Source of the DNA: a virus
Taxonomy: Duplodnaviria; Heunggongvirae; Uroviricota; Caudoviricetes
Virus record (IMG/VR): IMGVR_UViG_3300032046_000009
Length of the DNA: 64,000 bases
Strand: one strand, 5' to 3'
The notes under the pieces were generated by a model, which was not told the DNA's origin, searched no databases, and saw nothing but the letters and a program-made list of their open reading frames with translations. Shown piece by piece: positions 1,498-61,019 of the stretch; position 1 is the stretch's first letter; the number at the start of each line of letters is the position of its first letter. The position numbers and the translations under genes were made by a program.

Positions 1498-1557
1498 ATT
1501 TTCACCAATAGCATATAGGCATCGTAGCTTATAAACCTTTACCTAAAAACCGAAGGT

Positions 1558-2086: not shown

Positions 2087-2164
2087 CTACCGTTCATCGA
2101 CTTACACTCCTATCGAACGTTTCGAACCGTTCTACCGTTCATCGGTAAGCACTCCTATCGAGCG
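2087..2164. repeat. 33-bp direct repeat, two copies 45 bp apart
   Basis: ctaccgttcatcgacttacactcctatcgaacg / ctaccgttcatcggtaagcactcctatcgagcg; ggctaattgtccct x2 follows. Confidence 0.7.
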
Positions 2165-3490: not shown

Positions 3491-3564
3491 GTTCGCACGT
3501 CCTTCAATACTATAATGTCAGCGTCCTATATAAACCTTCGCATTAAAAAAAGAAGGGAATTGTT

Positions 3565-3858: not shown

Positions 3859-3894
3859 CTTTCCACGTCCTTAATAGTGTAATAGCACCGTGAC

Positions 3895-4416: not shown

Positions 4417-4504
4417 GTCCTTAAAGATGATATAACACCGTCCTTAATAAAGAGTTCTATGGTTTTTCTTGTAATAGGTATATAAACCTTTCGCTCTGTT
4501 CGAA

Positions 4505-4800
4505 CCTGTCCGTGCCAGCGATACCCAAAAGGACTGTATATCAAACCCGTTTGTCAAAAACAAGCCCTGAGCATGTCGTTCGGACGAATACGCTCAATTC
4601 CCTTTATATTTGCTCAACGATATTGAGCGAGCAAGCCCCGTTTAGTCGAATAAGGCTAAATCGTGGAGTTCGGGTCTATGTTAGGCATGGTCAATTCAAC
4701 ATCAGTCCTATGGTAACTATGGTTCGATGACGTTCGTTTAGCTAAATCAGCCTTAGAGCTAGTCATCGCGGCGAGTTCGAATCTATAAGATGCCTCTATT
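4505..4800. ncRNA. candidate noncoding RNA locus, paralog of 19105-19400
   Basis: ORF-poor; shared blocks cccaaaggactgt, cctgagc, aacgatattga, catcagtcctatgg. Confidence 0.4.
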
Positions 4801-5871
4801 AACTGATTCCGCCTCAAATCGGGGTCCGATGATGTGTAGCTAAAGTGTATCTGTGTTCTACAACTAAAAGCAAACGTTTATATAGGACGCTGAGAACGTA
4901 GTATTTGGCGGCGGCGGTTCGCGTTAAGCGTATATTACATAGTTACGCATCTTATGAATTCAGTTGCACTAAAAGTTCAACTTTGGGTTGCCTCTCTCCC
5001 GTGTCTTGCGTCAAGCTACTAGCAGATACGCACAGCCCTATATAAACCTTCCTATTAAAGTGTAGAACAGAGATACAATAGGAACCTTTATATACCTCGC
5101 TATCCTCTTCTCAGCGCGCCTCAAATCGTGCTTCGTTTGGCTAATCCGCCTCGATTCAGCCCTAATTGAACATGGTTGTTCTAGGCAAACATTTATAAGC
5201 AACCATGCCTTTTATATGGTATGTATCGAAAGACGTGATTAAACCCAGAGTTGTACTTTATGGTTCGAATTTTGCTAAGTTTGCACATATATAAGCAACC
5301 GATAGGTTTAAATAGCTACTATATAAGGCTATCGGCGATACGCTTAAATAGGGGGTATATAAACGTTTTGGTCTAGCACAACTTCTAGTGTAACAAAAAG
5401 TGCAACTTTTGGGGTAACGCCTCGGCTAACAGGAAATTGTCCGTAGAATGCAACTGAGAATGTCACATAAGCGCACATAGGCGTTTTTTTGATTCCAATT
5501 ATTTTCTGGTCAGAGCTTCCACGCCGTCCGTTTTACCTGTCGGTTTGCCCTGCTTAATCACCTGATTAAAAGTTCTCCACAGTTCCGCGAGCCTTTCGGA
5601 TAATAAAGTCACCGTTTGCCAAAACGTCTTTTTTTCAGGGCTATTTTGGCATTCAGGGGAGCTAGAGGGGGGGGACTTGTTTATAATGGGGTATTAATCA
5701 GTTGTTTAAAATAGAGCTATAGCACTATGTCAGTCAGCACGTTGTCGTATGCCAACTATTCACTCCATAGACCCTTTACGTATGACAACCCTTTTCTTTA
5801 CGTATGTAAAGGTCATCAGTATCTTTTATCGAGCATTTCTTTTATCCATGTACTCCACTTTTTAGCTATTC

Positions 5872-6040
5872 TGGGGGTCTAGTACCACTTTTAGGGGTCT
5901 TTTGAGGGGTATAGGGAGTCATCTAGGGGGTTAGTGATTAGAGGTCGTTAGGGGTTCGTGGTTAAGGGGGTCGGACGGGGGTTCTCTGGGGTTCGGGAAT
6001 TTACTTAACAATTTCTGTTAATGGTTAGGGGGGTCGGGGT
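5872..6040 (+). repeat. G-tract iteron array (about 10 runs of G4-G6)
   Basis: taggggtc, gaggggta, tagggggtt, ttaggggttc, taagggggtcgg, acgggggttc, ctggggttcgg, ttaggggggtcgggg. Confidence 0.75.
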
Positions 6041-6389
6041 AAAGGGTGCATGTGGCATGAGAGAGCCTGTTACGAGCTACGATTCGTTAATCAGTTGATT
6101 AAAAGTTCGGGTTTGCCTGTGTCGCCTTGCTACGGGCTTGGCAGAACTTGGGTCAGTCTGGGTTGACTAGGTGAAATCAAAAAGTGTTAAGGATTCTTAA
6201 CAAAAATTGTCTAAGTTTGCAGAGGGTAAAAGAGGGGGTTTCGAGAGAGGTTAGAAGGAATGAGTAGAACGGGCGAAGGGAAAGCGCGAGAAAGGACGGT
6301 GAAAAAATGGAACAATATCCCTTCGCCCTTGATAGAGTAGTATGTCAAACGGGTATATAAAGGTTGTGGTAGAAAGACCATGCTCGAAT

Positions 6390-6608
6390 CTAGTGTTCGA
6401 CTTTATAGATTCCATAGAGCAGTACCAATATTCCAACAGGGACACCCAAAAATAGAAGCGGTGAAAATAGCGCACCAAAAGTAGCAGAAAAAGCGAAAAT
6501 GAAAATTCCACCCAGAATTGCCCCTATACTTTGGGTTAGAGGGTCACGTATGACTTCGATGGTTCTTGTGTAGAGCCACTTAAAGAATCCTATTTTTTGC
6601 TTGACCAT
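6390..6608 (-). CDS. small membrane protein
   Basis: track 6390..6617; hydrophobic stretches; ATG 5 nt after AAGTGA; TATA 6643-6650. Confidence 0.55.
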   Translation of the reverse strand: MVKQKIGFFKWLYTRTIEVIRDPLTQSIGAILGGIFIFAFSATFGALFSPLLFLGVPVGILVLLYGIYKVEH

Positions 6609-6671
6609 CTTGTTCACTTGATAATAACAACAACACCGAGCTATATAAAGGTTTCCTAAGAACGTCCATGC

Positions 6672-6809
6672 TCAAAATTCAATGTGAACTTTGAGTATTC
6701 CAGAAAGTATTAGAGCTATTACAACTACGAAAAAGGCTATCGGGGCAAATGCCATGATTATGCCAGCGTTCTCTTTTACTTTCTTAATCACGGTTTTTAG
6801 TGTTATCAT
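6672..6809 (-). CDS. 45-aa membrane protein (not in track)
   Basis: hand translation; one TM; stop TGA in TTTTGAGCATGG element. Confidence 0.4.
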   Translation of the reverse strand: MITLKTVIKKVKENAGIIMAFAPIAFFVVVIALILSGILKVHIEF

Positions 6810-6982
6810 TTTAGACCACTTAGATTAGCGCGGAACACGGACGATTCTCCAATAAGCGTCCATCACTCGTCAGCTAAGGACGTAGTTTGGAAACCTTGTT
6901 TCCGTGCTCATACGAGTAATACAATAATCAAACAACTATATAAAGATTGTGGTAGAAACATCATACTCAAAAAAAGAGAGTT

Positions 6983-7162
6983 TTAGAGAAATTGTTTATT
7001 CTCTGTCCGTATCTGAATGTCAATGTCCGTAACGAGTATTTCAATGCTGTCTATGTTTTGTTGTTTCTTGCGTCTTTTAGTCTTTACGGCATCTTTTAAG
7101 AGCTTTATGACGTATCGAGCTTGTTTCGGGGTTATTTTGACCTTAAACTCTTTGTCTATCAT
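6983..7162 (-). CDS. 59-aa basic protein (not in track)
   Basis: ATG 3 nt after stop of 7166..7513; hand translation. Confidence 0.45.
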   Translation of the reverse strand: MIDKEFKVKITPKQARYVIKLLKDAVKTKRRKKQQNIDSIEILVTDIDIQIRTENKQFL

Positions 7163-7165
7163 GGC

Positions 7166-7513
7166 TTAAGCGTCCTTCAAGTAAAGCGTATATCCGACTG
7201 AGAACCATCCCGTTTGGCAGAAGCCAATAATAACGGTTTCTCCGCGCGTTTCGCACTCTTTTATCTTGTCTTTCAGCAATTCGGTCATTGCTTTCGGGTC
7301 TGTTCCAGATTCACCCATAGTTGCTATCCATCCAGAATGAAGGTGTTCATTTTGAAGCCCTGTGCCTGAACGGGTCGTAATTTTGTCGTCATTTCCTAGT
7401 TCAATAGCGTGGTAGCCCCGTTTCTTTGCCAGCGCGTCTAATCTGTCATAGTCTTGGAAAACATTGCAATGGACGGGTGGGAATTTGTCTTTTGATGTTA
7501 GGAAGTTCTTCAT
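7166..7513 (-). CDS. hypothetical protein
   Basis: 115 aa ORF, co-oriented, 11-nt gap to upstream gene. Confidence 0.65.
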   Translation of the reverse strand: MKNFLTSKDKFPPVHCNVFQDYDRLDALAKKRGYHAIELGNDDKITTRSGTGLQNEHLHSGWIATMGESGTDPKAMTELLKDKIKECETRGETVIIGFCQTGWFSVGYTLYLKDA

Positions 7514-7524
7514 TGCTCAGTCAC

Positions 7525-7914
7525 CTATTGATGTCCGTCTTGAATATTCTGGAAAACTTCAATGAATCCGTGCATGTGAACGGCACACGCGAATAACTCA
7601 TAGATTCCATAGTATGACGCAAAGTTGTCATAACCAACACCCGAATCTACGAAGATTCTGGGTCGCTTTTGGACATTGCCCTTCTCTGTGAGTCCCGCTA
7701 GAACAACGACACGTTTTTCTGGGTTCTTTAGAAGATATTTTTCTAATTGTTCTCTTGCCTCTTTGCCGAAGTTGTCCTCAATGTTCGCTAGGTTCAAGTA
7801 TGTCAGCTTAGAGTATCGTTCAGATGGTTGTGCTGGATATTGGTTTTCGAGCCATGACTCTGAGGGTTTAACGTTCTTCGATGTCAGCTTTTCCTTTAAC
7901 TCTTGTAACTTCAT
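7525..7914 (-). CDS. hypothetical protein
   Basis: 129 aa; AAGGTTGAAACT-ATG leader; TATA 7949-7956. Confidence 0.65.
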   Translation of the reverse strand: MKLQELKEKLTSKNVKPSESWLENQYPAQPSERYSKLTYLNLANIEDNFGKEAREQLEKYLLKNPEKRVVVLAGLTEKGNVQKRPRIFVDSGVGYDNFASYYGIYELFACAVHMHGFIEVFQNIQDGHQ

Positions 7915-7985
7915 AGTTTCAACCTTTGAAGAGTAGTGTTCGCCGTCCTATATAAAGGTTCGCTAAGAACGAACGTGCTCAAAAT
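7915..7985 (-). promoter_or_regulatory. class I promoter cassette with distal TTGAGCACG..TTCTTAGCG element
   Basis: plus strand cgccgtcctatataaaggttcgctaagaacgaacgtgctcaaaa. Confidence 0.6.
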
Positions 7986-8149
7986 TTTAGGGGGGTCTTG
8001 GCTAGTGCGTTTCGCCGTGACCCTAGTTTTATTTAATGTAGAGGTTGAAATTTGCCCTATGTCGTATCGCACCGCATAAGGATTTTTCAACGTGCGGAAT
8101 AGACATATACACACCGAAGTATATAAACTTTCGCTAAGAACAACCATAC

Positions 8150-8533
8150 TCAGAGAGGAATAACACCTAGCCATTTATAAACTTCGGTGTTAATTTCAGC
8201 CATACCCGAACCCGTCCATACGTTGTGAGGAATAGAAGTATGAAGAGACTCTGGAATGAAAATAACGTGTGATTTATCGATGTGGTGTCCTTCTGAACCG
8301 TTAAAAGGTGCGTTTAGAATAATAGAGCCTAATTCTCGGCGTTTAGCTTGAATCCTAGCTTGCGTTTTCTTGTGATAAATTCGATGTTCTCTCTCATATT
8401 TTCTCTCATAGTTTGGGTTTTCTAATCTCCATTTCCTCTTATATAACTTTACCTCTTTCTTATGTTTCAAACGCCAATTCTTGTAATATGTAATACGTTT
8501 TTCTCTTGAATCTGTGAGCGTCATTTGATTCAC
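8150..8533 (-). CDS. His-rich nuclease-like protein, paralog of 9378..9704
   Basis: shared KRRELG and GHHID..VIxIPxxLHxSIxHxVWTGxGMAEIN. Confidence 0.65.
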   Translation of the reverse strand: MNQMTLTDSREKRITYYKNWRLKHKKEVKLYKRKWRLENPNYERKYEREHRIYHKKTQARIQAKRRELGSIILNAPFNGSEGHHIDKSHVIFIPESLHTSIPHNVWTGSGMAEINTEVYKWLGVIPL

Positions 8534-8579
8534 ATTAAACTAAATGTTAAACGTGCTTATAAAGGTTTCGGTAAAAGTT

Positions 8580-8830
8580 AGTTGGAACACGGGGGAGAGT
8601 GTGCCCCCGTGTTCTCGGACGTGGTTTGTGGTTTTTTGTCAGTTGAAGCACAAGTTGGTGGAATGCCCCGTGTACGGGACAAACCTTCGGTCTTGTGCGG
8701 TTCCGTTCTTTGTCGCTTATTTCGAACGTAACCCTAGCGACTATGAAGGGTCGGCAAGTTTGTGAGCGTATAGCTCTTTGGTCTTGCGCGCCCTTTGTTT
8801 AGACGCAAGCGCGTCATGTATTATTGAGAT
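8580..8830 (-). ncRNA. candidate GC-rich structured RNA
   Basis: TATA 8841-8848 fires leftward; no minus ORF; perfect 11-bp hairpin gaacacggggg/cccccgtgttc 8585-8614. Confidence 0.45.
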
Positions 8831-8870
8831 GTCAAACGACTATATAAACTTTTCGGGAGAAAGACCATGT

Positions 8871-9254
8871 TTATTGTCTGGGTTTGTTTGCCCTTTCTCT
8901 AAAATCGTCTGTTTCTTGTTGTGTGAAAACTTTATCAATAGCTGGAAGTCTATCGCTCTTTACATAACCATGTAAAAGGTTTCTCTCTTCTACATATTCA
9001 TTATCGCTTTCAGCGTTCAAGTTGTGAGAAATAGCTGATAAACTTTCGTATGGAAGAATTCGGTTTAATACTTCATAAATTGCAACTTCATTGAATTCGT
9101 GAACGAACAACTCAGCACCAATATCATCAGCGATTATACTGTCAATGGAATAGATAACTTTGGTAATTTTAGTATCATATCTTGAAATAGTCCCAGAAGC
9201 CAAAGCTGTTCCATCGAGTTCAGCGTTATCGAAGTAAATTTTCTCCGTGTTCAT
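8871..9254 (-). CDS. hypothetical protein
   Basis: track 8871..9266; ATG 6 nt after GGTGA beside palindrome 9267-9282. Confidence 0.6.
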   Translation of the reverse strand: MNTEKIYFDNAELDGTALASGTISRYDTKITKVIYSIDSIIADDIGAELFVHEFNEVAIYEVLNRILPYESLSAISHNLNAESDNEYVEERNLLHGYVKSDRLPAIDKVFTQQETDDFRERANKPRQ

Positions 9255-9266
9255 CGCGTTCACCAA

Positions 9267-9282
9267 TTAATCAACTGATTAA
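9267..9282. promoter_or_regulatory. 16-bp palindrome TTAATCAACTGATTAA (between TATA and start)
   Basis: read directly; second copy at 9332-9347 flanks the same promoter. Confidence 0.7.
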
Positions 9283-9331
9283 TCAGTACAGCGCGCTATA
9301 TAAAGTTTCGCCTAGAACGTCCATGTTCGAG

Positions 9332-9347
9332 TTAATCAACTGATTAA
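9332..9347. promoter_or_regulatory. 16-bp palindrome TTAATCAACTGATTAA (promoter-distal copy)
   Basis: read directly. Confidence 0.7.
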
Positions 9348-9377
9348 AAATTCGCTAAAAACCACTTGTCGCCACGT

Positions 9378-9704
9378 TTATGTGGTAAGCCATTCGAAAA
9401 CTTTATCATTTATTTCTGCCATACCCTGACCTGTCCAAACGCAATGATGAATAGAAATATGAAGTTCTCTGGGAATATAGATAACACATTCAAAATCTAT
9501 ATGATGAGCAACAGAGCCAATAAATCTCCCATTAAAAGGGTCAAACCCTAATTCTCGCCGTTTTGCATTCTTCATTTTAGTTCGCTCTGGGTGTTTTTTT
9601 CCCCACATTTTTATTTGTTCTCGTTGTCTCTTTTTTTGTGATTCAGTTTTCTCTTTTATTTCAACGTCAAAATTTCCAATAGACTTTAATCGCATCTGAA
9701 TCAT
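9378..9704 (-). CDS. His-rich nuclease-like protein, paralog of 8150..8533
   Basis: VAHHIDFECVIYIPRELHISIHHCVWTGQGMAEIN; class II TATA 9730-9737. Confidence 0.65.
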   Translation of the reverse strand: MIQMRLKSIGNFDVEIKEKTESQKKRQREQIKMWGKKHPERTKMKNAKRRELGFDPFNGRFIGSVAHHIDFECVIYIPRELHISIHHCVWTGQGMAEINDKVFEWLTT

Positions 9705-16667: not shown

Positions 16668-16805
16668 CTTTATTACCTTACGAGTATAGATGCCAGCGTC
16701 CTATTTAAATGTTTGCTTAGAAAGACCATGTTCATTTTAGTTAATCAACTGATTAAAATTTCTCAAAACCCCTCTCCCGCCCGAACCAAAGGTTGCACCA
16801 AAAGT

Positions 16806-18938: not shown

Positions 18939-19005
18939 TTTTCCACACCTTTATAGATGCCAGCGTAGCTTATAAAGGTTTCCCCAGAACGACCATGCTC
19001 GTTTT
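18939..19005 (-). promoter_or_regulatory. class I promoter cassette, palindrome 19008-19023 upstream
   Basis: aaaggtgtggaaaaatg leader; gcttataaaggtttccccagaacgaccatgctcg. Confidence 0.6.
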
Positions 19006-19104
19006 AGTTAATCAACTGTTTAAAAAAGTGAAAGGTTGCACTCTGAGTGACTTAAATGTTGATGGTCAAAGGCATGGTCGAAACTTTTATTACACCTAGA
19101 GTTT

Positions 19105-19400
19105 AACTGTGCCCCGAAGTAGTGTCCCCCAAAGGACTGTGGATAATGCCCGACTCTCAATTTCATCCCCTGAGCGTTCTCTTCGGGGCAAATCGTTCAA
19201 TAATTTCGAACATATATAAACGATATTGAACGAGTGTCCTTCTTTTGTTCGAAGAGGCTCAAATAATGCTTTTCGACCAATGGAAACGATGTTAAAAAGA
19301 CCATCAGTCCTATGGAATCTGGGTTTCGTTCGGGTTCGTTTTGGAAAATCAGTCTTGGAAAACGGCAACGCGCAGACTTCGAATGTAAAGGCTTCGAGTT
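19105..19400. ncRNA. candidate noncoding RNA locus, paralog of 4505-4800
   Basis: 10-bp long-range pair gccccgaag/cttcggggc (19112-19193); no credible ORF. Confidence 0.4.
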
Positions 19401-19544
19401 TTGAAATTAATCATTTGATTAAATAAGCTCAACAGTTCGCATCGTGCCTCGGCGTGAAGGGGCGTGAAGCAGTTAATCACCTGATTAATTAAATGCGCCT
19501 CGCACCGCGTCCCGTTTGGCAAAAGCGACCATTGTGAAAGCTGT

Positions 19545-19620
19545 GCTGGAAATTGAGCATGGCGTTTTTAGGGAAAGATTTATAAGCTACCGTGTTGTAG
19601 TATTCACAAAGAGGCACAAA
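19545..19620 (+). promoter_or_regulatory. full class I promoter cassette on plus strand
   Basis: ttgagcatggcgtttttagggaaagatttataagctaccg read on plus strand. Confidence 0.55.
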
Positions 19621-19621
19621 T

Positions 19622-19753
19622 ATGTTTCCGTTTGATACTCTGGGTTTCATAATAGGTTTAATTGTTCTTGCAAAAGTAGTTAAAACTTTCAGGCGACCCG
19701 TTGGTTGTCCCGACCCGTCAGAACTTGAGGAAGCACTAGAGGACGAAGGCTAG
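19622..19753 (+). CDS. 43-aa membrane protein (not in track)
   Basis: ATG after AGAGGCAC; one TM; hairpin + T-run 19825-19845 downstream. Confidence 0.45.
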   Translation: MFPFDTLGFIIGLIVLAKVVKTFRRPVGCPDPSELEEALEDEG

Positions 19754-20028
19754 GTCACACTTTCGGTGTAACTTTCCGTCCCCTCGAAAATTAAATTTTT
19801 AGTAGAATCCTGAGTGTCACATAACGCACATAGGCGTTTTTTCTTCCCAATTAGATTTCGGTTTATGGTGAAGCCCTCTGCCAGCCCCCAACGTATTCCC
19901 CAGACTTTTAATCAACTGATTAAAAAAGCACCGACTTCAGGCTTCAGTTCCCATTGGCTTCGCCCTAGCATCCAGAACGTCTTTTTCCCTAGTCTATTTA
20001 CCTGTCAAATGTAGCTAGGGGTAGGGGA

Positions 20029-20154
20029 CTAATCGAACCGAACTTTCTCTTTTTGTTTATACAATAGTTTTAGACATTCGGGACAAAAAAGTGCACGACT
20101 TCCAGCGAAGGGTTTGCAGAACCAAAGTTTTCCACATCTAAAACATTCTATCAT
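20029..20154 (-). CDS. 41-aa Zn-ribbon protein (not in track), last cassette of array E
   Basis: CFRCG..CPEC; ends EKVRFD + TAG; abuts G-rich hub. Confidence 0.5.
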   Translation of the reverse strand: MIECFRCGKLWFCKPFAGSRALFCPECLKLLYKQKEKVRFD

Positions 20155-24544: not shown

Positions 24545-24605
24545 TTTTATCAACAAGAGTATATTAGCATCGTCCTATATAAACCTTAGCCCAGAACTAC
24601 CATAC

Positions 24606-24893
24606 TCAAGTGAACTGAACTACTTCTTTTATAGCGTTCCTTATATCGCCTAGTGAAGTAATTTTAATATCCAAAATCATCTCATCTGCCATCTGTTGAA
24701 AGTGTTCTATCTCGCTTTCGTGTATCTCTTCAAATGAACATTTAGATATATGTTCTCCGTCATCGTAGTCATCTTCAAAAAACATAGAGCAAAGAGCACA
24801 TTCCTCTGAACCCCCACTTATACCCCCTCTAAATTTTACTGCAAGAGGGTCATTAGAATACGCAAGCCATCTTAAACTAACTTTACGTGTCAT
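24606..24893 (-). CDS. acidic small protein, last cassette of array G
   Basis: ends EVVQFT; its TTGA continues as TTGAGTATGG promoter element. Confidence 0.65.
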   Translation of the reverse strand: MTRKVSLRWLAYSNDPLAVKFRGGISGGSEECALCSMFFEDDYDDGEHISKCSFEEIHESEIEHFQQMADEMILDIKITSLGDIRNAIKEVVQFT

Positions 24894-25105: not shown

Positions 25106-25266
25106 GTGAAACACACAACTTCCTTTTTAGGCTTTTTGCCACTAACATCGCACACAGAATACATGTCACACTTTTGGCATCTGTCTTGTAAATAGTTTGT
25201 GCATATCAAAACTTTCAGAGTAGTTACGCCCGTTTTTATGTTAGCTTGCAGTTGCATTCTTCTCAA
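25102..25266 (-). CDS. 54-aa Cys protein (not in track)
   Basis: TTG in JM; ends EVVCFT. Confidence 0.5.
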   Translation of the reverse strand: MRRMQLQANIKTGVTTLKVLICTNYLQDRCQKCDMYSVCDVSGKKPKKEVVCFT

Positions 25267-25391
25267 GTGAAGGACACCTTTTCTTTATTCTCCAAGATGT
25301 AAATTAATGCCTGAGCAATTATTTGCTGATTCTGTTGGACATTTCCTGTTGGAACAGATTTTAGATTTTTGATTATCTGTTCTCGATTCAA
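25263..25391 (-). CDS. 42-aa protein (not in track)
   Basis: TTG in JM; ends EKVSFT. Confidence 0.45.
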   Translation of the reverse strand: MNREQIIKNLKSVPTGNVQQNQQIIAQALIYILENKEKVSFT

Positions 25392-25537
25392 GTGAATTGC
25401 ACTTCCTCTTGTTCTTCTAAATATGGAATCCCATGAACTATTTTTTGAACCAGATAACGATAACCGTTTTTGTGAAAGACATCTCCAACTTTCAACTCTT
25501 CTCTGTTGGCTTGTCCTCTGGGTATTATTTTGTTCAA
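25388..25537 (-). CDS. 49-aa beta-barrel-like protein (not in track)
   Basis: VGDVF motif; ends EEVQFT. Confidence 0.5.
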   Translation of the reverse strand: MNKIIPRGQANREELKVGDVFHKNGYRYLVQKIVHGIPYLEEQEEVQFT

Positions 25538-25707
25538 GTGAACATCACTATTTCCCTTTCATTTGGTTGCTTGACTTTAAGACATTCTACAAGTCTTTCT
25601 TTCTTTTTCACCCAACAATCAGGACATAAACATTGGTTCATCTTTCTATTTTTCGCATCACATGATTGCTTGCAATTAAACTCTTTTTTACAATTTTTAC
25701 ACTTCAA
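25534..25707 (-). CDS. 57-aa 8-Cys protein (family A; not in track)
   Basis: MKCKNCKKEFNCKQSC..CLCPDC; ends EIVMFT. Confidence 0.6.
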   Translation of the reverse strand: MKCKNCKKEFNCKQSCDAKNRKMNQCLCPDCWVKKKERLVECLKVKQPNEREIVMFT

Positions 25708-25931
25708 GTAAACTTCACCCTTTCCTTTACTTTCTCTTTATCCCATTTTGCGAAAAGGTCTATTCCTTGTTTCCAAGTTATACAACTGCTTCCTGTCGTC
25801 TTAATGGATTTTTCGCTGTGTTTTCCTATATTCTCATATCTCGTTCCATATTGTTCTCCTTTCGTATCACAATATCCTTTTTTTCGGTTGTTAAACAAAC
25901 AGTTGAAACAGCCCTGTGTTGGTAAACTCAA
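25704..25931 (-). CDS. small Cys protein (family C)
   Basis: TTG start; GCFNC..GSSC; ends ERVKFT. Confidence 0.7.
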   Translation of the reverse strand: MSLPTQGCFNCLFNNRKKGYCDTKGEQYGTRYENIGKHSEKSIKTTGSSCITWKQGIDLFAKWDKEKVKERVKFT

Positions 25932-28434: not shown

Positions 28435-29115
28435 CTATTGTTTGGTATTTTTGTTTTTGGTTTCTTTGACGCAAACACACTTTCGATTGTTGAGCAATGC
28501 CCCAATTATCAGTCCTAGTATGAAAGTCAGTATGATTATCAAGAGCCAACATGGGTTACAGTCTTTCTTGTTGTCGGTGATATAGACGTAGAATGGCTTG
28601 TCAACGTAAACAACTCTGTTCACGTAAAGGACTTTCTCGATGTACTTGATGACTTCTTTTGGCACTTCGATATAGACCGTGTTGTTGCAGTATTTGATTA
28701 TTTCGACTTCCTTGATGACTTCGACAGGCACTTCCTTAATGACTTCTTTGATGACCTCTATTGGCACTTCAACGTAAACGACTGTTTCAACAACTTTGTC
28801 AACATAGACAATCTTTTCAACTATTCTGTCAATGTAAACAGTCTTTTCCACTATTCTGTCTTTGTAAACGATTTTCTCAACAACTCTGTCAACGTACACT
28901 ATTCTGTCCACGTAAACAGGAACTTCAACCGTTTGGTTGACGTAAACAATTCTGTCCACGTAGATTATTTTGGTCTTGTTGTTACAAGAGTTGCCATCGT
29001 CACCGTCATTGCAATTTGGCTTATCATTGTCGTCAGAAGCAAATGCTGGAACTATCACTATTGGTATCACTAACGCAATCAAAAGCGCGATTATTATCAA
29101 ATTTCTTTTTTTCAT
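28435..29115 (-). CDS. repeat-rich type I membrane protein
   Basis: N-terminal signal/TM, C-terminal TM; VYVDRIVEKIVY-type repeats, about 33-bp DNA period. Confidence 0.7.
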   Translation of the reverse strand: MKKRNLIIIALLIALVIPIVIVPAFASDDNDKPNCNDGDDGNSCNNKTKIIYVDRIVYVNQTVEVPVYVDRIVYVDRVVEKIVYKDRIVEKTVYIDRIVEKIVYVDKVVETVVYVEVPIEVIKEVIKEVPVEVIKEVEIIKYCNNTVYIEVPKEVIKYIEKVLYVNRVVYVDKPFYVYITDNKKDCNPCWLLIIILTFILGLIIGALLNNRKCVCVKETKNKNTKQ

Positions 29116-32811: not shown

Positions 32812-33756
32812 TCACTTGATTAATTGAAGTATCCCATCTTTACTTATTTGGAGTTTGTGGTATCGCATATCAGCCTTGCCTAGCCGACACTTGAGAACCC
32901 GTATGAAGTGTAGAAGTTCGCCTTGTTTTGCTTCGGTGTCGATTTTCATTTGAGCGTCCCAACTTGAGAGTTTCTTAAAGTTGATTTCAAACTCCACGTC
33001 TAGCAAATGGCTTAATGCAATGCCCCCTGCAAGTCCGTGTTGGTCAACTGATTCCTCATTTGCTTTCTGTGAGATAAAGATTCCTGTCACGCCTTTCTTC
33101 TGATTATAGCGGACAAATTCGCCTAAGTGGAATTTCAGTCCAGCACGATAATCATCTAGGAGAGTTAACGAATCGACAATTAGAAACTCAGCCTTTTCCT
33201 GTTCTACGAGTACGCGATAAGTTGAAACAAGTGTATTCCATTCTCTAAGTTCGCCGTGTGCAATAACGTCCAGCACAAAAAGATTCTGCTTTATGTTTTC
33301 CCAACTCAGTCCCAGAAAAGTTGCCATCTGTTTCATTCGACTCTGCAAATCAAATCTGTCGTTGTCAGCTTGGAAAATATCTTCGCTAGTTGTGAAAATA
33401 ACTTTGTTTCCGTCACTAGCTAATCTGAGCGCAACTTCCTGAGCGATTAAAGACTTGCCGACATCTGGGTTTCCGACCACACCTATCTGTGCAACTTTCG
33501 GAATGCCCCCCATAGGTTTATCGTCTTTGTCTAAGAAGAAATTGTCTAGGAAGGTTCTGCTTTTGAATAATGCTATTTGTGTCTTTATCTTTGCATCGTT
33601 CGGTCTAGTGGTCAGAAAGTCTTTAGTAAGTTGAATTGGTTTGTTAAAACTCTCTAGCGTTCCATCATTCTGAGCCTTAGCGATTATCTCTTCCATTCTC
33701 TCCATTACAGATTTAGCTCTTTCCTCTAGTTCTTTTTTACTTTGTTCTTCGCTCAT
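32812..33756 (-). CDS. RecA-superfamily ATPase (KaiC/RadB/DnaB-C-like)
   Basis: Walker A GNPDVGKS; Walker B FLIVDSLT. Confidence 0.7.
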   Translation of the reverse strand: MSEEQSKKELEERAKSVMERMEEIIAKAQNDGTLESFNKPIQLTKDFLTTRPNDAKIKTQIALFKSRTFLDNFFLDKDDKPMGGIPKVAQIGVVGNPDVGKSLIAQEVALRLASDGNKVIFTTSEDIFQADNDRFDLQSRMKQMATFLGLSWENIKQNLFVLDVIAHGELREWNTLVSTYRVLVEQEKAEFLIVDSLTLLDDYRAGLKFHLGEFVRYNQKKGVTGIFISQKANEESVDQHGLAGGIALSHLLDVEFEINFKKLSSWDAQMKIDTEAKQGELLHFIRVLKCRLGKADMRYHKLQISKDGILQLIK

Positions 33757-35223: not shown

Positions 35224-35421
35224 TTAATCGTGCATCACGGGGATTCCTTTTGCTCTAAGTTTTGCTTTACGTCTTGCAACCTCTTCAAAATCGTCCGCGC
35301 CAGCGTCATAACCCTCTGAAAATCCAGCTTCATGTGCTTCCCATTCTTTTTCTTCGGACGTTTGTTTTATTTTCTTTCCTTCTAAAAAAAGGTGAAGTTT
35401 TTTGGTTTTTATCGTGTTCAT
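35224..35421 (-). CDS. acidic small protein
   Basis: 65 aa; ATGA overlap. Confidence 0.6.
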   Translation of the reverse strand: MNTIKTKKLHLFLEGKKIKQTSEEKEWEAHEAGFSEGYDAGADDFEEVARRKAKLRAKGIPVMHD

Positions 35422-35825
35422 CGAGATAGCAATGCTCCTATCAAAGCTCCTATGAACACCGTGACTACGAGTGTTGAAACGGCAAAAAGAATTATTCCGA
35501 TAATCAGGCAGTAAATCAATGGGGCATAGATTAGCAAGTTTGTGAAGGTTGCTGTTTGTGCAGTTGTAAAGTTTCCCAGACTAATCAGTAATTGATTTAG
35601 TTGTATCGCCCAGACCCAATAGAGATATATGCCAACGTAGGGAATAAGCGAAGCCAGCATTATGAGTTCAGTCAGGAAAACCATAACGAAGCCGACTATG
35701 AATCCTTGTATGCTTGACGTAATTAGAAAGCCGACAGCACCGACTATGAGTGCGATAATCAGCGAAGTTATCCACGAAGTTCCATAGGTTTTTACTACGA
35801 CTTGAGTTGATTTCTTGTCGTTCAT
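35418..35825 (-). CDS. multi-pass membrane protein
   Basis: track 35418..35834; ATG after GTGATTGAA; about 4 TM. Confidence 0.65.
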   Translation of the reverse strand: MNDKKSTQVVVKTYGTSWITSLIIALIVGAVGFLITSSIQGFIVGFVMVFLTELIMLASLIPYVGIYLYWVWAIQLNQLLISLGNFTTAQTATFTNLLIYAPLIYCLIIGIILFAVSTLVVTVFIGALIGALLSR

Positions 35826-35889
35826 TTCAATCACTACACACTAAGATAGCAATGTCCCTTATAAACTTTCCCTAAGAATTGCCATGCTC

Positions 35890-36300
35890 AGTTTCGAAGT
35901 TAGTTCGAAAAAGTATATGAATTAAATTTAAGATTTAATGGGACTGTTATATAATTTTTCATGGTCTTTTCCCATAGGTTATAAACTATTCCATAAATCC
36001 TAAATATAATCCTTGATAGATTTCGGAGTTAGTTCGAAACATCAAAAAGTCCATACTTTTACCATAGACTATTCGAACAATTTTCGAAAAGAAAATATAA
36101 TTATTTAGGATTTTATGGATTAAAATAACTATCCGATTGCCCAGAGAAGCCATAAGAATGCCCCGTTTGACAAAAGGACATAGATATAAAAAATATTAAA
36201 ATTATATTTTAGAATTTTAATCAGGTGATTAACCGTGGTCGTATATTGCATGGACAATATAGGATAATTAATCAACTGATTAAAAATTCGAAAAATCGGG
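35890..36300. other. AT-rich ORF-free region with TTCGAA repeats and an inverted repeat
   Basis: tttcgaagttagttcgaaa / tttcggagttagttcgaaac; IR ccataaatcctaaatataat vs ataattatttaggattttatgg. Confidence 0.5.
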
Positions 36301-36486
36301 TGAGTCGCGCTCGCGCAAAATTTTGAGCATTCGAAAAAAAACTAACGTAGAAAAATTGAAAATGAAACATCCAAAACGGAACAGCCGTTAGGGGGTTTCG
36401 CTTCGTCCACTTGAACGGGACGGGCACGATTAGGCTAGAAGTACGTGTTTCTTTCTACACGCATTTTAATTCTATATACCAATTCA

Positions 36487-36582
36487 TTAAATATATATAA
36501 TGGAAACAGTAATCGTTGTTTCAAGTCCTATTCTAGCATTCAGACGATTCGTTGTGGTGTAGTTTTCCATGCTATCACCCAT
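36487..36582 (-). CDS. 31-aa micro-ORF (not in track)
   Basis: ATG about 27 nt from TATA 36609-36616; weak. Confidence 0.3.
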   Translation of the reverse strand: MGDSMENYTTTNRLNARIGLETTITVSIIYI

Positions 36583-36639
36583 AGCTGAGAAGTAGTATGT
36601 GCAAACTACTATATAAAGGTTGTGGTAGAAGAACCATGC

Positions 36640-36786
36640 TCAAGTAAAGGTTACTTTCTCCACGTCCATTTTGTGCATACAGTCATAACAAAGCCACTTT
36701 CTTCCTTTAAGAACTACCACAATCTGTTTTCTTCCGCATCCGTCACACGTTAATCCTGTATAAGCCATAGTGATTTTGGCATTCAT
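36640..36786 (-). CDS. 48-aa Zn-ribbon protein (not in track), last cassette of array M
   Basis: CDGCG..CYDC; ends EKVTFT; TTGAGCATGG follows. Confidence 0.55.
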   Translation of the reverse strand: MNAKITMAYTGLTCDGCGRKQIVVVLKGRKWLCYDCMHKMDVEKVTFT

Positions 36787-37076
36787 GTAAATGCAACCTT
36801 CTCTTTTCTGGTTTCTATGTTTTTCAAAAACTCTTCAAAATATTTGTTCCAAATTTCGCTGAATTCTTTCCACGCTTTTTCACCCTCATCGTTATCATTT
36901 CCAAATTTTGCACTATTGTTATAATTTTTACGAGCATCATTTAATCTTTGTATTCTACTTCCTTTGTCAAGAAAGTGTGTCCATTTTGAAAAACAATCTT
37001 TACATATAGTATATGGGGCAATAGAATGGCATGTCTTTTCCTCATTACAAACAGAACAAATTTTCAGGTCTGTCAA
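36783..37076 (-). CDS. small Zn-ribbon protein (family B)
   Basis: TTG start; CSVC..CKDCFSKW; ends EKVAFT. Confidence 0.7.
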   Translation of the reverse strand: MTDLKICSVCNEEKTCHSIAPYTICKDCFSKWTHFLDKGSRIQRLNDARKNYNNSAKFGNDNDEGEKAWKEFSEIWNKYFEEFLKNIETRKEKVAFT

Positions 37077-40193: not shown

Positions 40194-40265
40194 TAATCGG
40201 TCACTACCTAGAGATATAGCTTTCCCCTATATAAAGGTTTAGTAAGAACTCCCATGCTCAAAACC
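40194..40265 (-). promoter_or_regulatory. class I promoter for array M
   Basis: ttcccctatataaaggtttagtaagaactcccatgctcaaaa. Confidence 0.6.
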
Positions 40266-40481
40266 CTATGAGTATCGCTGGTTTGCATGGACTTCTCCAT
40301 GCCGAAGGTCATAAAAGGAACTATTTTAATCAGTTGATTAAACATTCGGTTTCCATGACCAGCAGGGTTGGGAGCTTTTTTGGCACTTCGAAAAATTTCG
40401 AAAGCCATTCTCTCCATACAAACATCCCCAACCAGCAAAAAAGTGATGGTCATTTGCGAGACCTGTAAAAATTATCTGCCT

Positions 40482-40614
40482 CGAAATTTGCTCGTTTTCG
40501 GAAATTCGACTCAGTTCGAAACTCACCCTATGGGAAATTTTCTCGGTGGGAAAGGGCGGGAGCCAAATCGCCCCGAAATTTGCTCGTATTGCCGAGTTCG
40601 ATTCAGTTCGGGGG
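40482..40614. repeat. about 41-bp direct repeat, two copies
   Basis: cgaaatttgctcgttttcggaaattcgactcagttcgaaac / cgaaatttgctcgtattgccgagttcgattcagttcggggg. Confidence 0.7.
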
Positions 40615-41088
40615 TCAGATGGCTTTTTTCCACCCCCTCGGCTCCATGCCCCAAACTTTTAATCAGTTGATTAATAACTACCGAAAGGTTTATATGGTGC
40701 AACTCGTATTATATAAGGAAGAGTTGAACTTTCAATGACACAGAAAGTTACACTAACCGTAACCTCGAAAGTGACCCAGACGGAAACACGGAAAAGGGTA
40801 ACGCAGAAAAACCTTTAGGAAAAAACCATCGGTCACACTTTTTGAAACCACATACCCACACATAGGCGGCGCGCAGGCGAAAATTTGATTTTGGTCGGCG
40901 AACTTTGTGATTTCTGTTATGATTGTTATTTTGGTATTATTTTTATTTCCTATTTCCTGAGCATTTCGATTTAGATTTACTAAGGATTCGAGAAAAGAAA
41001 ATAACTGAAAACGTCTTTTTTTCAGGGAGTTTTGAACGTCTAGGGGAGCTAGGGGTAGGGGACTATCCCAGAGAAAGTTGGTATATGC

Positions 41089-41277
41089 TCAGAAGGAAGC
41101 GGGTGGCGGGGAAGCTGTTGTAATAAAGTCTGGGCACTTGCCATTCTCCTTTATTGCCTGAACGATAAGGTCGTTTACTGGAATACGCTTGCAGTATTCT
41201 TCCCTTAAACATTCCTTACATTTTGCACGTTCCTTTATCTCTTCAAATGGTATCTTATTCACCACCCTTATTGCCAT
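41089..41277 (-). CDS. small Cys protein, last gene of array N
   Basis: 62 aa; CKEC..C..C; abuts G-rich hub. Confidence 0.55.
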   Translation of the reverse strand: MAIRVVNKIPFEEIKERAKCKECLREEYCKRIPVNDLIVQAIKENGKCPDFITTASPPPASF

Positions 41278-60794: not shown

Positions 60795-60865
60795 TTTTTT
60801 CTTACCTTGAATATATACACGCATTCGTCCTATATAAACCTTGCCCTAGAAAGACCATGCTCAAC
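60795..60865 (-). promoter_or_regulatory. class I promoter cassette
   Basis: cattcgtcctatataaaccttgccctagaaagaccatgctcaac. Confidence 0.6.
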
Positions 60866-61019
60866 TTTCGAGTCTCTGTTCTTTTCCAAGATGTCTCAGA
60901 ATAATAAATTGATGATGAAATCCCTCAACTGGTGGAATAAGATTTTCGCCCTTCATTTTCCATTCTATACTATATCTATCGGTTGCATGAATCCAAAGTC
61001 CATCATATTCGAAACTCAT
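60861..61019 (-). CDS. 52-aa protein (not in track)
   Basis: stop TGA in TTGAGCATGG. Confidence 0.45.
   Translation of the reverse strand: MSFEYDGLWIHATDRYSIEWKMKGENLIPPVEGFHHQFIILRHLGKEQRLES

What the first reader, a model, noticed from the sequence alone, without database searches (positions are those of the whole stretch)
35890..36300. AT-rich, ORF-free block with TTCGAA repeats and a ~20-bp inverted repeat: candidate origin or unwinding element
This stretch is visibly the most AT-rich in the window. It contains direct repeats tttcgaagttagttcgaaa (35892-) and tttcggagttagttcgaaac (36021-). There are further ttcgaa words. An inverted repeat pairs ccataaatcctaaatataat (35991-) with ataattatttaggattttatgg (36097-). 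Two palindrome copies follow at 36227 and 36268. Gene orientation does not switch here, so this rests on composition and repeat structure only.
Basis: inference. Interest (0 to 1): 0.5.

Follow-up and report, generated by a model that had tools for sequence, protein, structure and literature searches.

The report
Conserved protein-binding array beside viral promoter
The AT-rich gap is real, and related uncultivated (probably archaeal) viruses keep the same layout of short DNA-binding motifs joined to a promoter, so it is most likely a transcription control region; a replication origin remains possible but has no positive evidence.

Summary
Window 35890-36300 is non-coding and is the most AT-rich and least stable duplex in the 64 kb. 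It holds 7 TTCGAA words where 0.5 are expected.

- The two palindromes (36217 and 36268, not 36227) belong to a dispersed family, TTAATCAnnTGATTAA. It has 25 copies where 1.1 are expected. Several copies (about ten) adjoin copies of a 45-nt promoter module that occurs about 31 times in the window.
- The TTCGAA words form three 17-bp dyads (TTCGAA-N5-TTCGAA). Each dyad is paired with a CCATAAAATCCTAAAT box, giving three ~50-bp composite units: A and C direct, B inverted.
- Unit A abuts a canonical promoter, in the position the dispersed palindrome occupies at other promoters.

The array, or its core (units B and A plus the promoter), recurs in four related metagenomic viruses. Three of them (L171, L173, L174) carry the whole collinear ~800-bp block; the fourth (L009) keeps only the core. 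The TTCGA half-sites are kept almost throughout (one lost in L174, single-base variants elsewhere) while their spacers vary. The first downstream gene differs among them.

GC skew is the same on both sides (-0.153 and -0.153). No initiator gene lies nearby. The AT tract is lost in one relative.

Best reading: a multi-operator transcription control hub (about 0.45). A replication origin is not excluded (about 0.3).

The parts
36596..36648 (-). Canonical promoter module (TTGAGCATGG..TTCT..TTTATATA) directly after the stop of the 48-aa zinc-ribbon gene. It fires into non-coding DNA.
   Evidence: Member of the repeat finder families D1 and D3. PWM score 44.7. Conserved in L171, L173 and L174.
36338..36590 (-). 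Putative ~250-nt non-coding transcription unit ending in a T8 run (36338-36345). The conserved core is CCCGTCCCGTTCAAGTGGACGAAGC...GGATGTTTCATTTTCAATTTTTCTA.
   Evidence: A 25-aa micro-ORF here has a non-coding codon score of -0.23. Fold z-scores are -1.8 to -2.5. It is 77-87% identical in three relatives. RNAalifold covariation is about 0, so RNA structure is unproven. No Rfam match.
36287..36335 (.). Two single TTCGAA words (36287, 36330) flanking a short GC hairpin, CGCGCTCGCGC (36306-36316), with T-runs. This is the terminator/boundary context also seen before other copies of the palindrome.
   Evidence: Repeat family D17. Invariant columns.
36268..36283 (.). Palindrome A, TTAATCAACTGATTAA. 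It belongs to a dispersed 16-bp palindrome family, part of which adjoins promoter modules.
   Evidence: 25 copies (up to 2 mismatches) against 1.1 expected. Positions relative to promoters. Conserved in L171, L173 and L174.
36242..36261 (.). TATATTG-N6-CAATATA palindrome between palindromes A and B. It may be a TATA-like element.
   Evidence: Partly conserved. Function inferred only.
36217..36232 (.). Palindrome B, TTAATCAGGTGATTAA, 51 bp from palindrome A. The same 51-bp spacing occurs in L171 and L173.
36180..36216 (.). Extreme AT tract. It lies within the least stable 50-bp duplex window of the whole 64 kb (36172-36221).
   Evidence: -0.976 kcal/mol per step against a mean of -1.279, 4 sd. 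Conserved in L173 and L174 but deleted or replaced in L171.
36137..36179 (-). Conserved block GTCCTTTTGTCAAACGGGGCATTCTTATGGCTTCTCTGGGCAA, role unknown.
   Evidence: Many invariant columns across four viruses.
36071..36118 (-). Composite unit C: box CCATAAAATCCTAAATA (36102-36118) followed by dyad TTCGAA-N5-TTCGAA (36072-36088).
35991..36040 (+). Composite unit B, inverted relative to A and C: box CCATAAATCCTAAATA (35991-36006) followed by dyad TTCGGA-N5-TTCGAA (36022-36038).
   Evidence: the repeat finder I1 (47-nt arms, 70% complementary with unit A) and I8..
35961..35975 (.). Central palindrome ATGGGAAAAGACCAT (read on the minus strand) between units B and A.
   Evidence: 15 of 15 positions invariant in the window, L171, L173 and L174. 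A related GAAAAAAGACCAT occurs in L009. CCAT/ATGG words: 8 in 269 bp against 2.0 expected.
35892..35941 (-). Composite unit A: box CCATTAAATCTTAAATT (35925-35941) followed by dyad TTCGAA-N5-TTCGAA (35893-35909). It abuts the promoter module.
   Evidence: The same dyad-promoter junction occurs in L009, L171 and L173.
35844..35896 (-). Canonical promoter module (TGAGCATGGcaaTTCTTAGGgaaagTTTATAAGGGAC; TATA at 35859-35865) driving the operon that starts with the 135-aa membrane protein.
   Evidence: Repeat family D1. PWM score 49.6..
35418..35825 (-). First gene of the downstream operon: a 135-aa predicted multi-pass membrane protein with SD GTGAT then ATG at 35825. The operon runs on to the KaiC-like ATPase at 32812-33756.
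   Evidence: ATPase fold.

Best explanation
The block is the core of a conserved ~800-bp non-coding control region of an uncultivated, probably archaeal, virus.

Read in the direction of transcription (minus strand), the region runs as follows:
1. A canonical promoter drives a ~250-nt non-coding transcript that ends at a T8 run.
2. Two copies of the genome-wide palindrome TTAATCAnnTGATTAA follow, 51 bp apart.
3. Next come an AT tract and a conserved 43-nt block.
4. Then come three ~50-bp composite binding units. Each has a CCATAAAATCCTAAAT box about one helical turn from a 17-bp dyad, TTCGAA-N5-TTCGAA.
5. The units are arranged C (direct), B (inverted), the invariant palindrome ATGGGAAAAGACCAT, then A (direct).
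6. Unit A directly abuts the canonical promoter of the operon that begins at 35825.

Proposed mechanism (inferred): a dimeric sequence-specific protein binds the three dyads, and a second specificity probably reads the CCAT boxes. Bound at unit A, in the slot used by the global palindrome at other promoters, it switches this one promoter. Units B and C act as auxiliary operators through cooperative binding or looping. The low-stability AT DNA makes such bending easy.

Shown: the motifs, their statistics, their position relative to the promoter, and their conservation.
Inferred: that they bind protein, and that the output is transcriptional control.
For: 1. The dyad is locus-specific. TTCGAANNNNNTTCGAA with up to 1 mismatch occurs three times in 64 kb, all at 35893-36088.

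2. Promoter grammar.
- About 31 copies of a 45-nt module, TTGAGCATGGtnnTTCTnnGnnAAngTTTATATAGGACGnTG, occur in the window, 29 of them on the gene strand.
- At seven promoters the 16-bp palindrome lies upstream of the module: four copies abut it and three lie 16-60 nt away. At three promoters a copy lies at or just after the start site.
- At 35844-35896 the TTCGAA dyad occupies the upstream slot.
- The junction TTCGAAAC-(4-6 nt)-(C)ATGG...TTTATA recurs in L009, L171 and L173.

3. Footprint pattern across five viruses.
- The TTCGA half-sites are kept almost throughout (one half-site of dyad 2 is lost in L174, and single-base variants occur in the window, L173, L171 and L009).
- The 5-nt spacers are free. 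For dyad 1 they read CTAAC, CCAAC, ACTGC and CGTTGC, and in L174 the spacing is shortened to 10 bp (TTTTG).
- The same holds for dyads 2 and 3.

4. The array is as conserved as coding DNA. It is 82% and 87% identical to the window in L173 and L174, where the adjacent gene is 76% and 74% identical.

5. The promoter association is kept while the AT tract is not. L171 and L009 lack an outstanding stability minimum but keep the dyads and the promoter.

6. There is no skew shift and no strand switch.
Against: - No regulator has been identified. No HTH, RHH or Lrp-type protein was detected among the neighbouring genes.
- The gene immediately downstream differs between relatives: a membrane protein, a 210-aa protein, a 129-aa protein and a 57-aa protein. 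That is odd for a dedicated operator-target pair and fits an autonomous cis element better.
- Long spacers are conserved as well as the sites, namely block 36137-36179 and the centre at 35961-35975.
- The units spread over 230 bp at irregular distances (centres 50 and 129 bp apart), wider than most operator sets.
- The region is the thermodynamic minimum of the window and of L173 and L174.
- A distant relative, L013 (ATPase 38% identical), has all six TTCGAA words of a 12.8-kb locus inside one ORF-free AT-rich 785-bp gap. That looks iteron-like.
Confidence: 0.45

Rival explanations
1. Replication origin. The three composite units are initiator-binding iterons in mixed orientation. The AT tract at 36172-36221 (and the unstable DNA around it) is the unwinding element. 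The upstream promoter and its ~250-nt non-coding transcript activate the origin or prime synthesis, as at transcription-primed phage origins.
For: - This is the least stable duplex in the 64 kb, with four of the four lowest 50-bp windows here. It is also the lowest-GC 400 bp.
- The iterated dyads are unique to the locus.
- The inverted arrangement gives an ssDNA fold z-score of -4.6.
- The whole non-coding block is conserved as a module while the flanking first gene varies.
- An HNH homing endonuclease is inserted in L174 without disrupting the units.
- L013 has an iteron-like TTCGAAA/TATGGTAAA cluster in one ORF-free gap.
- The layout of AT tract, then iterons, then a promoter carrying an inverted copy resembles iteron plasmids and lambda ori (own knowledge).
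Against: - GC skew is identical on both sides (-0.153 and -0.153, p=0.99) and has no turning point.
- All genes for more than 50 kb on both sides run the same way. A bidirectional origin here would put half of them head-on to the fork (inference).
- No initiator, helicase, primase or polymerase was recognised in the window.
- The nearby ATPase is a single-domain KaiC-like RecA fold, not an evident helicase.
- The AT tract and unit C's box are lost in L171, and the array is not the stability minimum in L171 or L009.
- There are only three units, irregularly spaced.
Confidence: 0.3
2. Another cis-acting DNA site that doubles as an operator: a centromere-like partition site, a packaging (pac) recognition site, or a site-specific recombination site with several protein-binding subsites.
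For: - Repeated sites in both orientations, fused to a promoter, occur in plasmid centromeres such as R1 parC and in the pNOB8 AspA site (own knowledge).
- The block is modular and mosaic. Against L171 the array is 69% identical while the adjacent gene is 92.5% identical.
- The composite units have two motif classes.
Against: - No ParA/ParM-type ATPase, integrase, resolvase or adjacent terminase was found.
- The only terminase-like hit is weak (E=6e-6) and 9 kb away.
- No contig ends or duplications map to the array.
Confidence: 0.1
3. The conserved feature is an RNA. The array is transcribed, for example from a TATA-like element between the two palindromes, and the inverted boxes and dyads form a long structured leader or non-coding RNA.
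For: - The inverted repeats give a strong single-strand fold (z=-4.6 as DNA).
- The whole block is conserved, including the spacers.
- A TATATTG element lies between palindromes A and B, in an arrangement like other promoters flanked by the palindrome.
Against: - The box C / box B stem is not maintained. L173 changes give one wobble and one mismatch, and L171 lacks box C.
- T5-T6 runs directly downstream of the putative start would be expected to stop an archaeal RNA polymerase (own knowledge).
- No Rfam family matches apart from spurious miRNA hairpin hits far below threshold.
- RNAalifold on the neighbouring conserved core shows no covariation.
Confidence: 0.08
4. Chance low-complexity AT-rich spacer with no function.
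For: AT-rich DNA yields many short repeats and inverted repeats. Several of the 25 inverted pairs are probably noise.
Against: - TTCGAA: 7 observed against 0.48 expected, and 0 of 5000 random placements reached 7.
- The dyad occurs only here.
- The array is collinear and conserved in three related viruses (its core in a fourth), with half-sites largely kept and spacers variable.
Confidence: 0.03

Closest known systems
Multi-operator control regions bound by dimeric regulators. Examples: the three regularly spaced 15-bp palindromic boxes of Sulfolobus Ss-LrpB; the repeated F55 sites at SSV1 early promoters; lambda OR/OL. (Own knowledge.)
   Same: Several copies of a dyad-symmetric 17-bp site. 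Half-sites are conserved and the central spacer is free. The sites sit directly upstream of a TATA-type promoter, with additional copies further upstream that could act cooperatively.
   Different: - No regulator gene has been identified.
- Sites are 50 and 129 bp apart rather than tightly or regularly spaced.
- Each dyad is coupled to a second box (CCATAAAATCCTAAAT).
- The first regulated gene is not conserved among relatives.
Iteron-plus-AT-tract origins of phages and plasmids (lambda ori, P1, F, R6K, pPS10). (Own knowledge.)
   Same: Dyad-containing repeats next to the least stable AT tract of the region. An inverted copy overlaps or abuts a promoter. The element is unique in the sequence available.
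   Different: - No rep/initiator gene downstream.
- Three irregularly spaced units instead of four or five phased iterons.
- No skew change.
- The AT tract is dispensable in one relative.
Archaeal chromosomal origins: inverted ORB or mini-ORB elements flanking an unwinding element next to orc1/cdc6. (Own knowledge.)
   Same: Inverted repeats (units C and B) face each other across about 30 bp of AT-rich DNA. The host is probably archaeal.
   Different: No orc1/cdc6 gene adjacent or anywhere in the window. The motif sequence does not resemble published ORB consensus sequences as I recall them. This was not tested with a model.
Transcription-activated phage origins (T7 phi1.1A/B promoters plus AT-rich region; T4 oriF/oriG middle promoter plus unwinding element). 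(Own knowledge.)
   Same: A canonical promoter drives a short non-coding transcript that ends just before an easily melted tract.
   Different: There is no evidence that the transcript persists as an R-loop or primer. The virus's polymerase and primase are unknown.
Virus-specific promoter motif families, such as phage-encoded promoter consensus sequences repeated throughout a genome. (Own knowledge.)
   Same: The 45-nt module (about 31 copies) and the 16-bp palindrome (25 copies) behave like a genome-wide promoter/operator vocabulary shared with relatives (L010, L011, L016).
   Different: The module is unusually long. It carries a conserved GAGCATGG..TTCT element upstream of the BRE/TATA. The factor that reads it is unknown.

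Membership tests
Replication origin (iteron/DUE type) | Local minimum of duplex stability (unwinding element) | tested here: met
   The lowest 50-bp, 100-bp and 200-bp nearest-neighbour stability in the 64 kb lies inside 35908-36221. It is not the minimum in relatives L171 and L009.
Replication origin (iteron/DUE type) | Array of repeated initiator-binding sites adjacent to the unwinding element | tested here: inconclusive
   Three composite units lie next to the AT tract. There are only three, irregularly spaced, and the binder is unknown.
Replication origin (iteron/DUE type) | Nucleotide-skew polarity change or cumulative-skew extreme at the site | tested here: not met
   GC skew is -0.153 at 10-35 kb and -0.153 at 37-64 kb (p=0.99). 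There is no turning point at 36 kb. Only the 64-kb window was tested, not the whole genome.
Replication origin (iteron/DUE type) | Linked initiator or replisome gene | tested here: not met
   No Rep, Orc1/Cdc6, MCM, primase or polymerase by Pfam or PHROGs among about 50 window proteins. The nearby ATPase is KaiC-like.
Replication origin (iteron/DUE type) | Copy-number (marker-frequency) peak or autonomous replication activity | not testable with these tools
   This needs read mapping of the source metagenomes or an experiment.
Archaeal ORB-type origin | ORB or mini-ORB consensus repeats, inverted around an unwinding element, next to orc1/cdc6 | tested here: not met
   An inverted arrangement is present, but there is no orc1/cdc6 gene. 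The ORB consensus comparison was made from memory only.
Transcriptional operator array | Dyad-symmetric sites with conserved half-sites and a free spacer | tested here: met
   Alignments of five viruses.
Transcriptional operator array | Fixed position next to a core promoter | tested here: met
   Dyad 1 abuts the promoter module in the window, L009, L171 and L173. In L174 it lies 12 nt from the TATA box.
Transcriptional operator array | A cognate DNA-binding regulator, and an effect on transcription | not testable with these tools
   No candidate was recognised by Pfam or PHROGs in the neighbouring genes. Binding and expression assays are needed.
Dispersed TTAATCAnnTGATTAA palindrome family (this virus group) | 16-bp palindrome, over-represented genome-wide, with a subset of copies next to promoter modules | tested here: met
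   The 36217 and 36268 copies are exact matches. There are 25 copies against 1.1 expected, and about ten of them adjoin promoter modules. The family also occurs in L010, L011 and L016.
Known RNA families (Rfam 15) | Covariance-model match at or above the gathering score | tested here: not met
   No hit at gathering thresholds in the window. Only two miRNA-hairpin hits far below threshold in 35700-36900.

The most novel reading that the evidence does not exclude
The block is the replication origin of a so far undescribed lineage of large (about 80-150 kb) archaeal viruses. It would use a new two-part iteron (a CCATAAAATCCTAAAT box plus a TTCGAA-N5-TTCGAA dyad) around an invariant ATGGGAAAAGACCAT centre. 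An adjacent promoter-driven ~250-nt non-coding transcript would serve as activator or primer. The element would move between genomes as a module.
Probability: 0.3. Interest if true: 0.5.

Novelty: new member of a known kind. Interest (0 to 1): 0.3.

Why it matters
Almost nothing is known about cis-acting elements in uncultivated archaeal viruses from sediments. This locus supplies a concrete, conserved set of DNA words with exact coordinates:
- a 45-nt promoter module;
- a genome-wide 16-bp palindrome;
- a locus-specific composite dyad array.

These can be used to annotate transcription units in related metagenomic viruses. They can also be used to search for the cognate DNA-binding proteins among the many tiny zinc-ribbon genes, and to test by read-depth analysis whether the array is the origin. 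If it is only a control region, it is an ordinary though well-defined example of viral promoter/operator grammar.

Tried and rejected
1. Phage database searches by DNA (2.5 kb) and by the ATPase protein gave no match.
2. tRNA/tmRNA and Rfam searches found nothing.
3. An exact 18-mer dyad search in IMG/VR gave one high-GC coding chance hit, L001.
4. A degenerate dyad search in metagenome contigs gave 33 single hits. None had the palindromes, modules or TTCGAA clustering, so all were treated as chance.
5. Protein-guided scans of metagenome contigs and genome contigs with the ATPase alignment confirmed no relatives.
6. A search for the 16-mer palindrome in IMG/VR was swamped by chance hits. Only UViG_3300035660_000003 was hit repeatedly, and its sampled ~45 kb has no TTCGAA cluster.
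7. A composite-unit pattern search in IMG/VR gave 0 hits.
8. A search for the host through the CRISPR repeat of relative L015 gave two chance hits.
9. MITE idea (17-bp terminal inverted repeats around 35991-36118): no other copies in the window or loci.
10. A second canonical promoter at the TATA-like 35979-35985 was not found by the PWM, and its spacing to ATGG is wrong.
11. TTTTACCATA as a second shared word with L013 is not enriched window-wide (10 against 9.2), so the support is only weak.
12. The KaiC-like ATPase as a replicative helicase: the fold matches KaiC C1 and PH0284, not DnaB or gp4.
13. The bacterial sigma-70 promoter and terminator scan was uninformative here.
Full report
CONTEXT

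The window has 38% GC and is packed with small genes, almost all on the minus strand. It has no tRNA genes, no Rfam hits and no similarity to deposited phages.

Identical copies occur on metagenome contigs of 86-151 kb from sediment-type samples. Three related contigs of 79-112 kb are listed in IMG/VR as viral.

Four things point to an archaeal virus, though the host is not proven:
- Genes are preceded by TTTATA-type boxes about 30-40 nt upstream of GTGAT-type ribosome-binding sites.
- Many products are tiny zinc ribbons.
- Pfam families typical of archaea appear, namely DUF7417 and the TFIIB zinc ribbon.
- The closest cellular homologue of the best-conserved protein is from a Bathyarchaeota MAG, at 42% identity.

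CHECKING THE OBSERVATION

Every quoted string is present at the stated coordinates, except that the first palindrome is at 36217 rather than 36227.

The 400 bp starting at 35891 have 27.5% GC, the window minimum; the next lowest is 30.0%. With nearest-neighbour energies, the four least stable 50-bp windows of the entire 64 kb all fall between 35909 and 36512. The minimum is at 36172-36221, 4 sd from the mean.

TTCGAA occurs 7 times in 456 bp against 0.48 expected from the region's own dinucleotide content. None of 5000 random placements of the window's 55 copies gave 7 in 450 bp.

Three mechanical ORFs of 48-55 aa cross the block. Their codon-usage scores (-0.27, -0.10, 0.01) lie below all called small genes (mean 0.28, minimum 0.095) and within or near the antisense-ORF range (mean -0.22, maximum -0.06). 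Gene callers on identical contigs left the stretch empty.

WHAT THE PALINDROMES ARE

TTAATCAnnTGATTAA is not special to this locus. It occurs 25 times in the window with up to 2 mismatches (20 exact) against 1.1 expected. It is also frequent in relatives L010 and L011 and present in L009 and L016.

Repeat finding and a PWM scan revealed a ~45-nt promoter module, TTGAGCATGGtnnTTCTnnGnnAAngTTTATATAGGACGnTG. It has about 31 copies, 29 of them on the gene strand.

At seven promoters the palindrome lies upstream of this module. Four copies abut it (9332, 14357, 16741, 19008) and three lie 16-60 nt away (56711, 28191, 40326). At three promoters a copy lies at or just after the start site (9267, 14285, 12353). 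The remaining copies are not next to a detected module.

The copies at 36217 and 36268 are therefore part of the virus's general regulatory vocabulary.

WHAT THE TTCGAA WORDS ARE

They form three 17-bp dyads, TTCGAA-N5-TTCGAA, at 35893, 36022 (TTCGGA) and 36072. With up to 1 mismatch this dyad occurs nowhere else in the 64 kb.

Each dyad lies 11-15 nt from a CCAT(A/T)AA(A)TC(C/T)TAAAT box, at 35925-35941, 35991-36006 and 36102-36118. This gives three ~50-bp composite units:
- unit A, 35892-35941, minus strand;
- unit B, 35991-36040, plus strand, inverted;
- unit C, 36071-36118, minus strand.

As single-stranded DNA, 35985-36125 folds with z=-4.6.

Between B and A lies ATGGGAAAAGACCAT (35961-35975). 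CCAT/ATGG words are enriched fourfold, 8 against 2.0 expected.

POSITION RELATIVE TO TRANSCRIPTION SIGNALS

Two canonical modules bracket the gap.

The module at 36596-36648 fires into DNA with no credible ORF. A 25-aa micro-ORF there scores -0.23. That stretch ends in a T8 run at 36338-36345, so it is a putative ~250-nt non-coding transcript. Its structure is only modestly better than shuffles (z -1.8 to -2.5).

The module at 35844-35896 drives the operon that begins with a 135-aa membrane protein and runs on to a KaiC-like ATPase. Dyad 1 abuts this module (TTCGAAAC-TGAGCATGG), in the slot taken by the global palindrome at other promoters.

RELATIVES

Through the ATPase I recovered L009 (79% identity), L010 (63%), and L011 to L013 (38-45%).

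Through the membrane protein I recovered L171 (89%), L173 (72%) and L174 (69%).

L171, L173 and L174 carry the same collinear non-coding block end to end:
1. promoter module;
2. non-coding stretch with an invariant CCCGTCCCGTTCAAG(T/C)GGACGAAGC core;
3. T-run;
4. GC hairpin;
5. two palindromes, 51 bp apart in L171 and L173;
6. AT tract;
7. a conserved 43-nt block (window 36137-36179);
8. units C and B;
9. the invariant ATGGGAAAAGACCAT;
10. unit A;
11. TATA box.

L009 keeps a shorter version: one palindrome, then inverted unit B, GAAAAAAGACCAT, unit A and the promoter.

Across these viruses the TTCGA half-sites are kept almost throughout, while the 5-nt spacers differ freely. The exceptions are single-base variants in the window, L173, L171 and L009, and the loss of one half-site of dyad 2 in L174. 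This is the classic footprint of a site read by a dimeric protein.

Nucleotide identity of the array to the window is 82% (L173), 87% (L174) and 69% (L171). The adjacent membrane gene is 76%, 74% and 92.5% identical. The array is thus about as constrained as coding DNA and is exchanged as a module.

The first gene after the array varies: the membrane protein in the window and L173, a 210-aa protein in L171, a 129-aa protein in L174, and a 57-aa Cys-rich protein in L009. L174 has an HNH endonuclease gene inserted between the palindromes.

The distant L013 has all six TTCGAA words of a 12.8-kb locus inside one ORF-free AT-rich 785-bp gap, together with TATGGTAAA repeats in both orientations. L010 has an AT-rich gap with two palindromes but no TTCGAA dyads.

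ORIGIN OR CONTROL REGION?

For an origin:
- the stability minimum;
- locus-specific repeats in mixed orientation;
- modular conservation independent of the downstream gene;
- an adjacent promoter-driven non-coding transcript.

Against an origin:
- GC skew is -0.153 on both sides (p=0.99) with no turning point. The only inflection in the window is at about 6-9.5 kb.
- All genes for tens of kilobases on both sides are co-oriented.
- None of about 50 proteins tested resembles an initiator or a replisome component.
- The nearby ATPase models as a single-domain KaiC/PH0284-type RecA fold (pLDDT 83).
- The AT tract and box C are lost in L171, and the array is not the stability minimum in L171 or L009. 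The features conserved wherever the array occurs are the dyads, the central palindrome and the promoter junction.

I therefore favour a multi-operator control hub for the promoter at 35844-35896 (0.45). An origin, possibly doubling as a promoter region as in several phages, remains a live rival (0.3). Lesser rivals are another cis site such as a centromere, pac or recombination site (0.1), a structured RNA (0.08) and chance (0.03).

The RNA reading is weakened because the box C/box B pairing is not maintained in L173 and is absent in L171. RNAalifold on the neighbouring conserved core also shows no covariation.

NOVELTY AND SCORE

The kind of element is well known: a virus-specific promoter/operator or iteron array. 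The particular motifs and the virus lineage are undescribed as far as these tools show. The one literature search made was on Bathyarchaeia viruses; the paper read (PMC10541130) does not mention origins or promoters.

Interest is modest at 0.3. It would rise to about 0.5 if read-depth or skew on complete genomes showed the array to be the origin.

Noticed in passing
window, 25 sites, e.g. 9267, 9332, 14285, 14357, 16741, 19008, 36217, 36268, 56711: The dispersed 16-bp palindrome TTAATCAnnTGATTAA has 25 copies against 1.1 expected. Copies are often in pairs 51-72 bp apart that bracket a promoter. Some copies double as the ribosome-binding site (..AAGTGATTAAaATG at 14285 and 32808). It is shared with relatives L010, L011 and L016.
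   Followed up: partly
window, about 31 sites, e.g. 16688-16740, 18955-19007, 24562-24614, 60817-60869; plus-strand copies at 5161-5213 and 19548-19600: A 45-nt conserved promoter module, TTGAGCATGGtnnTTCTnnGnnAAngTTTATATAGGACGnTG. The conserved GAGCATGG..TTCT element upstream of the TATA box suggests a dedicated transcription factor.
   Followed up: partly
window, 41 minus-strand gene junctions, e.g. 36640, 36783, 37210, 37685, 38118, 38390, 38575: Stereotyped gene junctions, ARGTnnnnTTYAC(A/T)TGA. Many small (often zinc-ribbon) proteins end in ..(E/K)KVxFT*, and the next gene's ATG or TTG overlaps the stop. There are 41 on the gene strand against 2 on the other strand. This suggests translational coupling or cassette-like paralogue expansion.
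   Followed up: partly
L015 1212-1781 (ENA ERZ25039512 contig_103589): A related virus (ATPase 79-80% identical) carries a CRISPR mini-array directly upstream of its ATPase gene. It has 8 exact 37-nt repeats, GTTGCATTGACGAATGACTGATAATACCTATTGAAAC, with spacers of about 40 nt. A 20-mer of the repeat found no host array among GTDB species genomes.
   Followed up: partly
window 4730-6250, 19030-20040, 40270-41090; L009 8041-8400; L010 7571-7980: A second class of long (0.6-1.5 kb) GC-richer non-coding regions. Each begins with a CCCCTACCCCTAGCT-like element and ..GAAAAAAAGACGTTTT, contains TTAATCA palindromes, and shares segments such as AAAAAACGCCTATGTGCG(C)TTATGTGACA(C/T)TC at about 5450 and 19830. 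These may be non-coding RNA genes.
   Followed up: no
window 46025-46453 (+); L174 2798-3214: HNH endonuclease genes. The window copy is the only clear plus-strand gene in a >50-kb minus-strand block. In L010, L013 and L015 its homologue sits directly after the ATPase. In L174 a different HNH gene is inserted between the two palindromes of the array.
   Followed up: partly
window 36338-36590 (-): A canonical promoter followed by about 250 nt without a credible ORF and a T8 run. The core is strongly conserved in L171, L173 and L174. It is a putative non-coding RNA with no Rfam family and no covariation signal from four sequences.
   Followed up: partly
window 40387-40402 and 40515: The only other close TTCGAA pair in the window (TTCGAAAAATTTCGAA, 10-bp spacing). 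It lies in another long non-coding region between palindromes 40326 and 40659, upstream of the promoter module at 40214-40266.
   Followed up: no
window 28589-28980: Imperfect 30-nt tandem repeats (about 4-7 copies) inside the 226-aa ORF 28435-29115. They imply a repetitive protein next to the Band-7/SPFH gene.
   Followed up: no
window 1-9500: The left end differs from the rest of the window. GC skew is near zero or positive, coding density is lower, and plus-strand ORFs and promoter modules occur. The only cumulative-skew inflection in the window is at about 6-9.5 kb.
   Followed up: no
L003 (ENA ERZ27247725 k141_946335), end of the 137-kb contig, equivalent to window ~25.5 kb: One near-identical 137-kb assembly ends inside the non-coding gap at window 25114-25928. 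This may be an assembly break at a repeat or a genome end.
   Followed up: no
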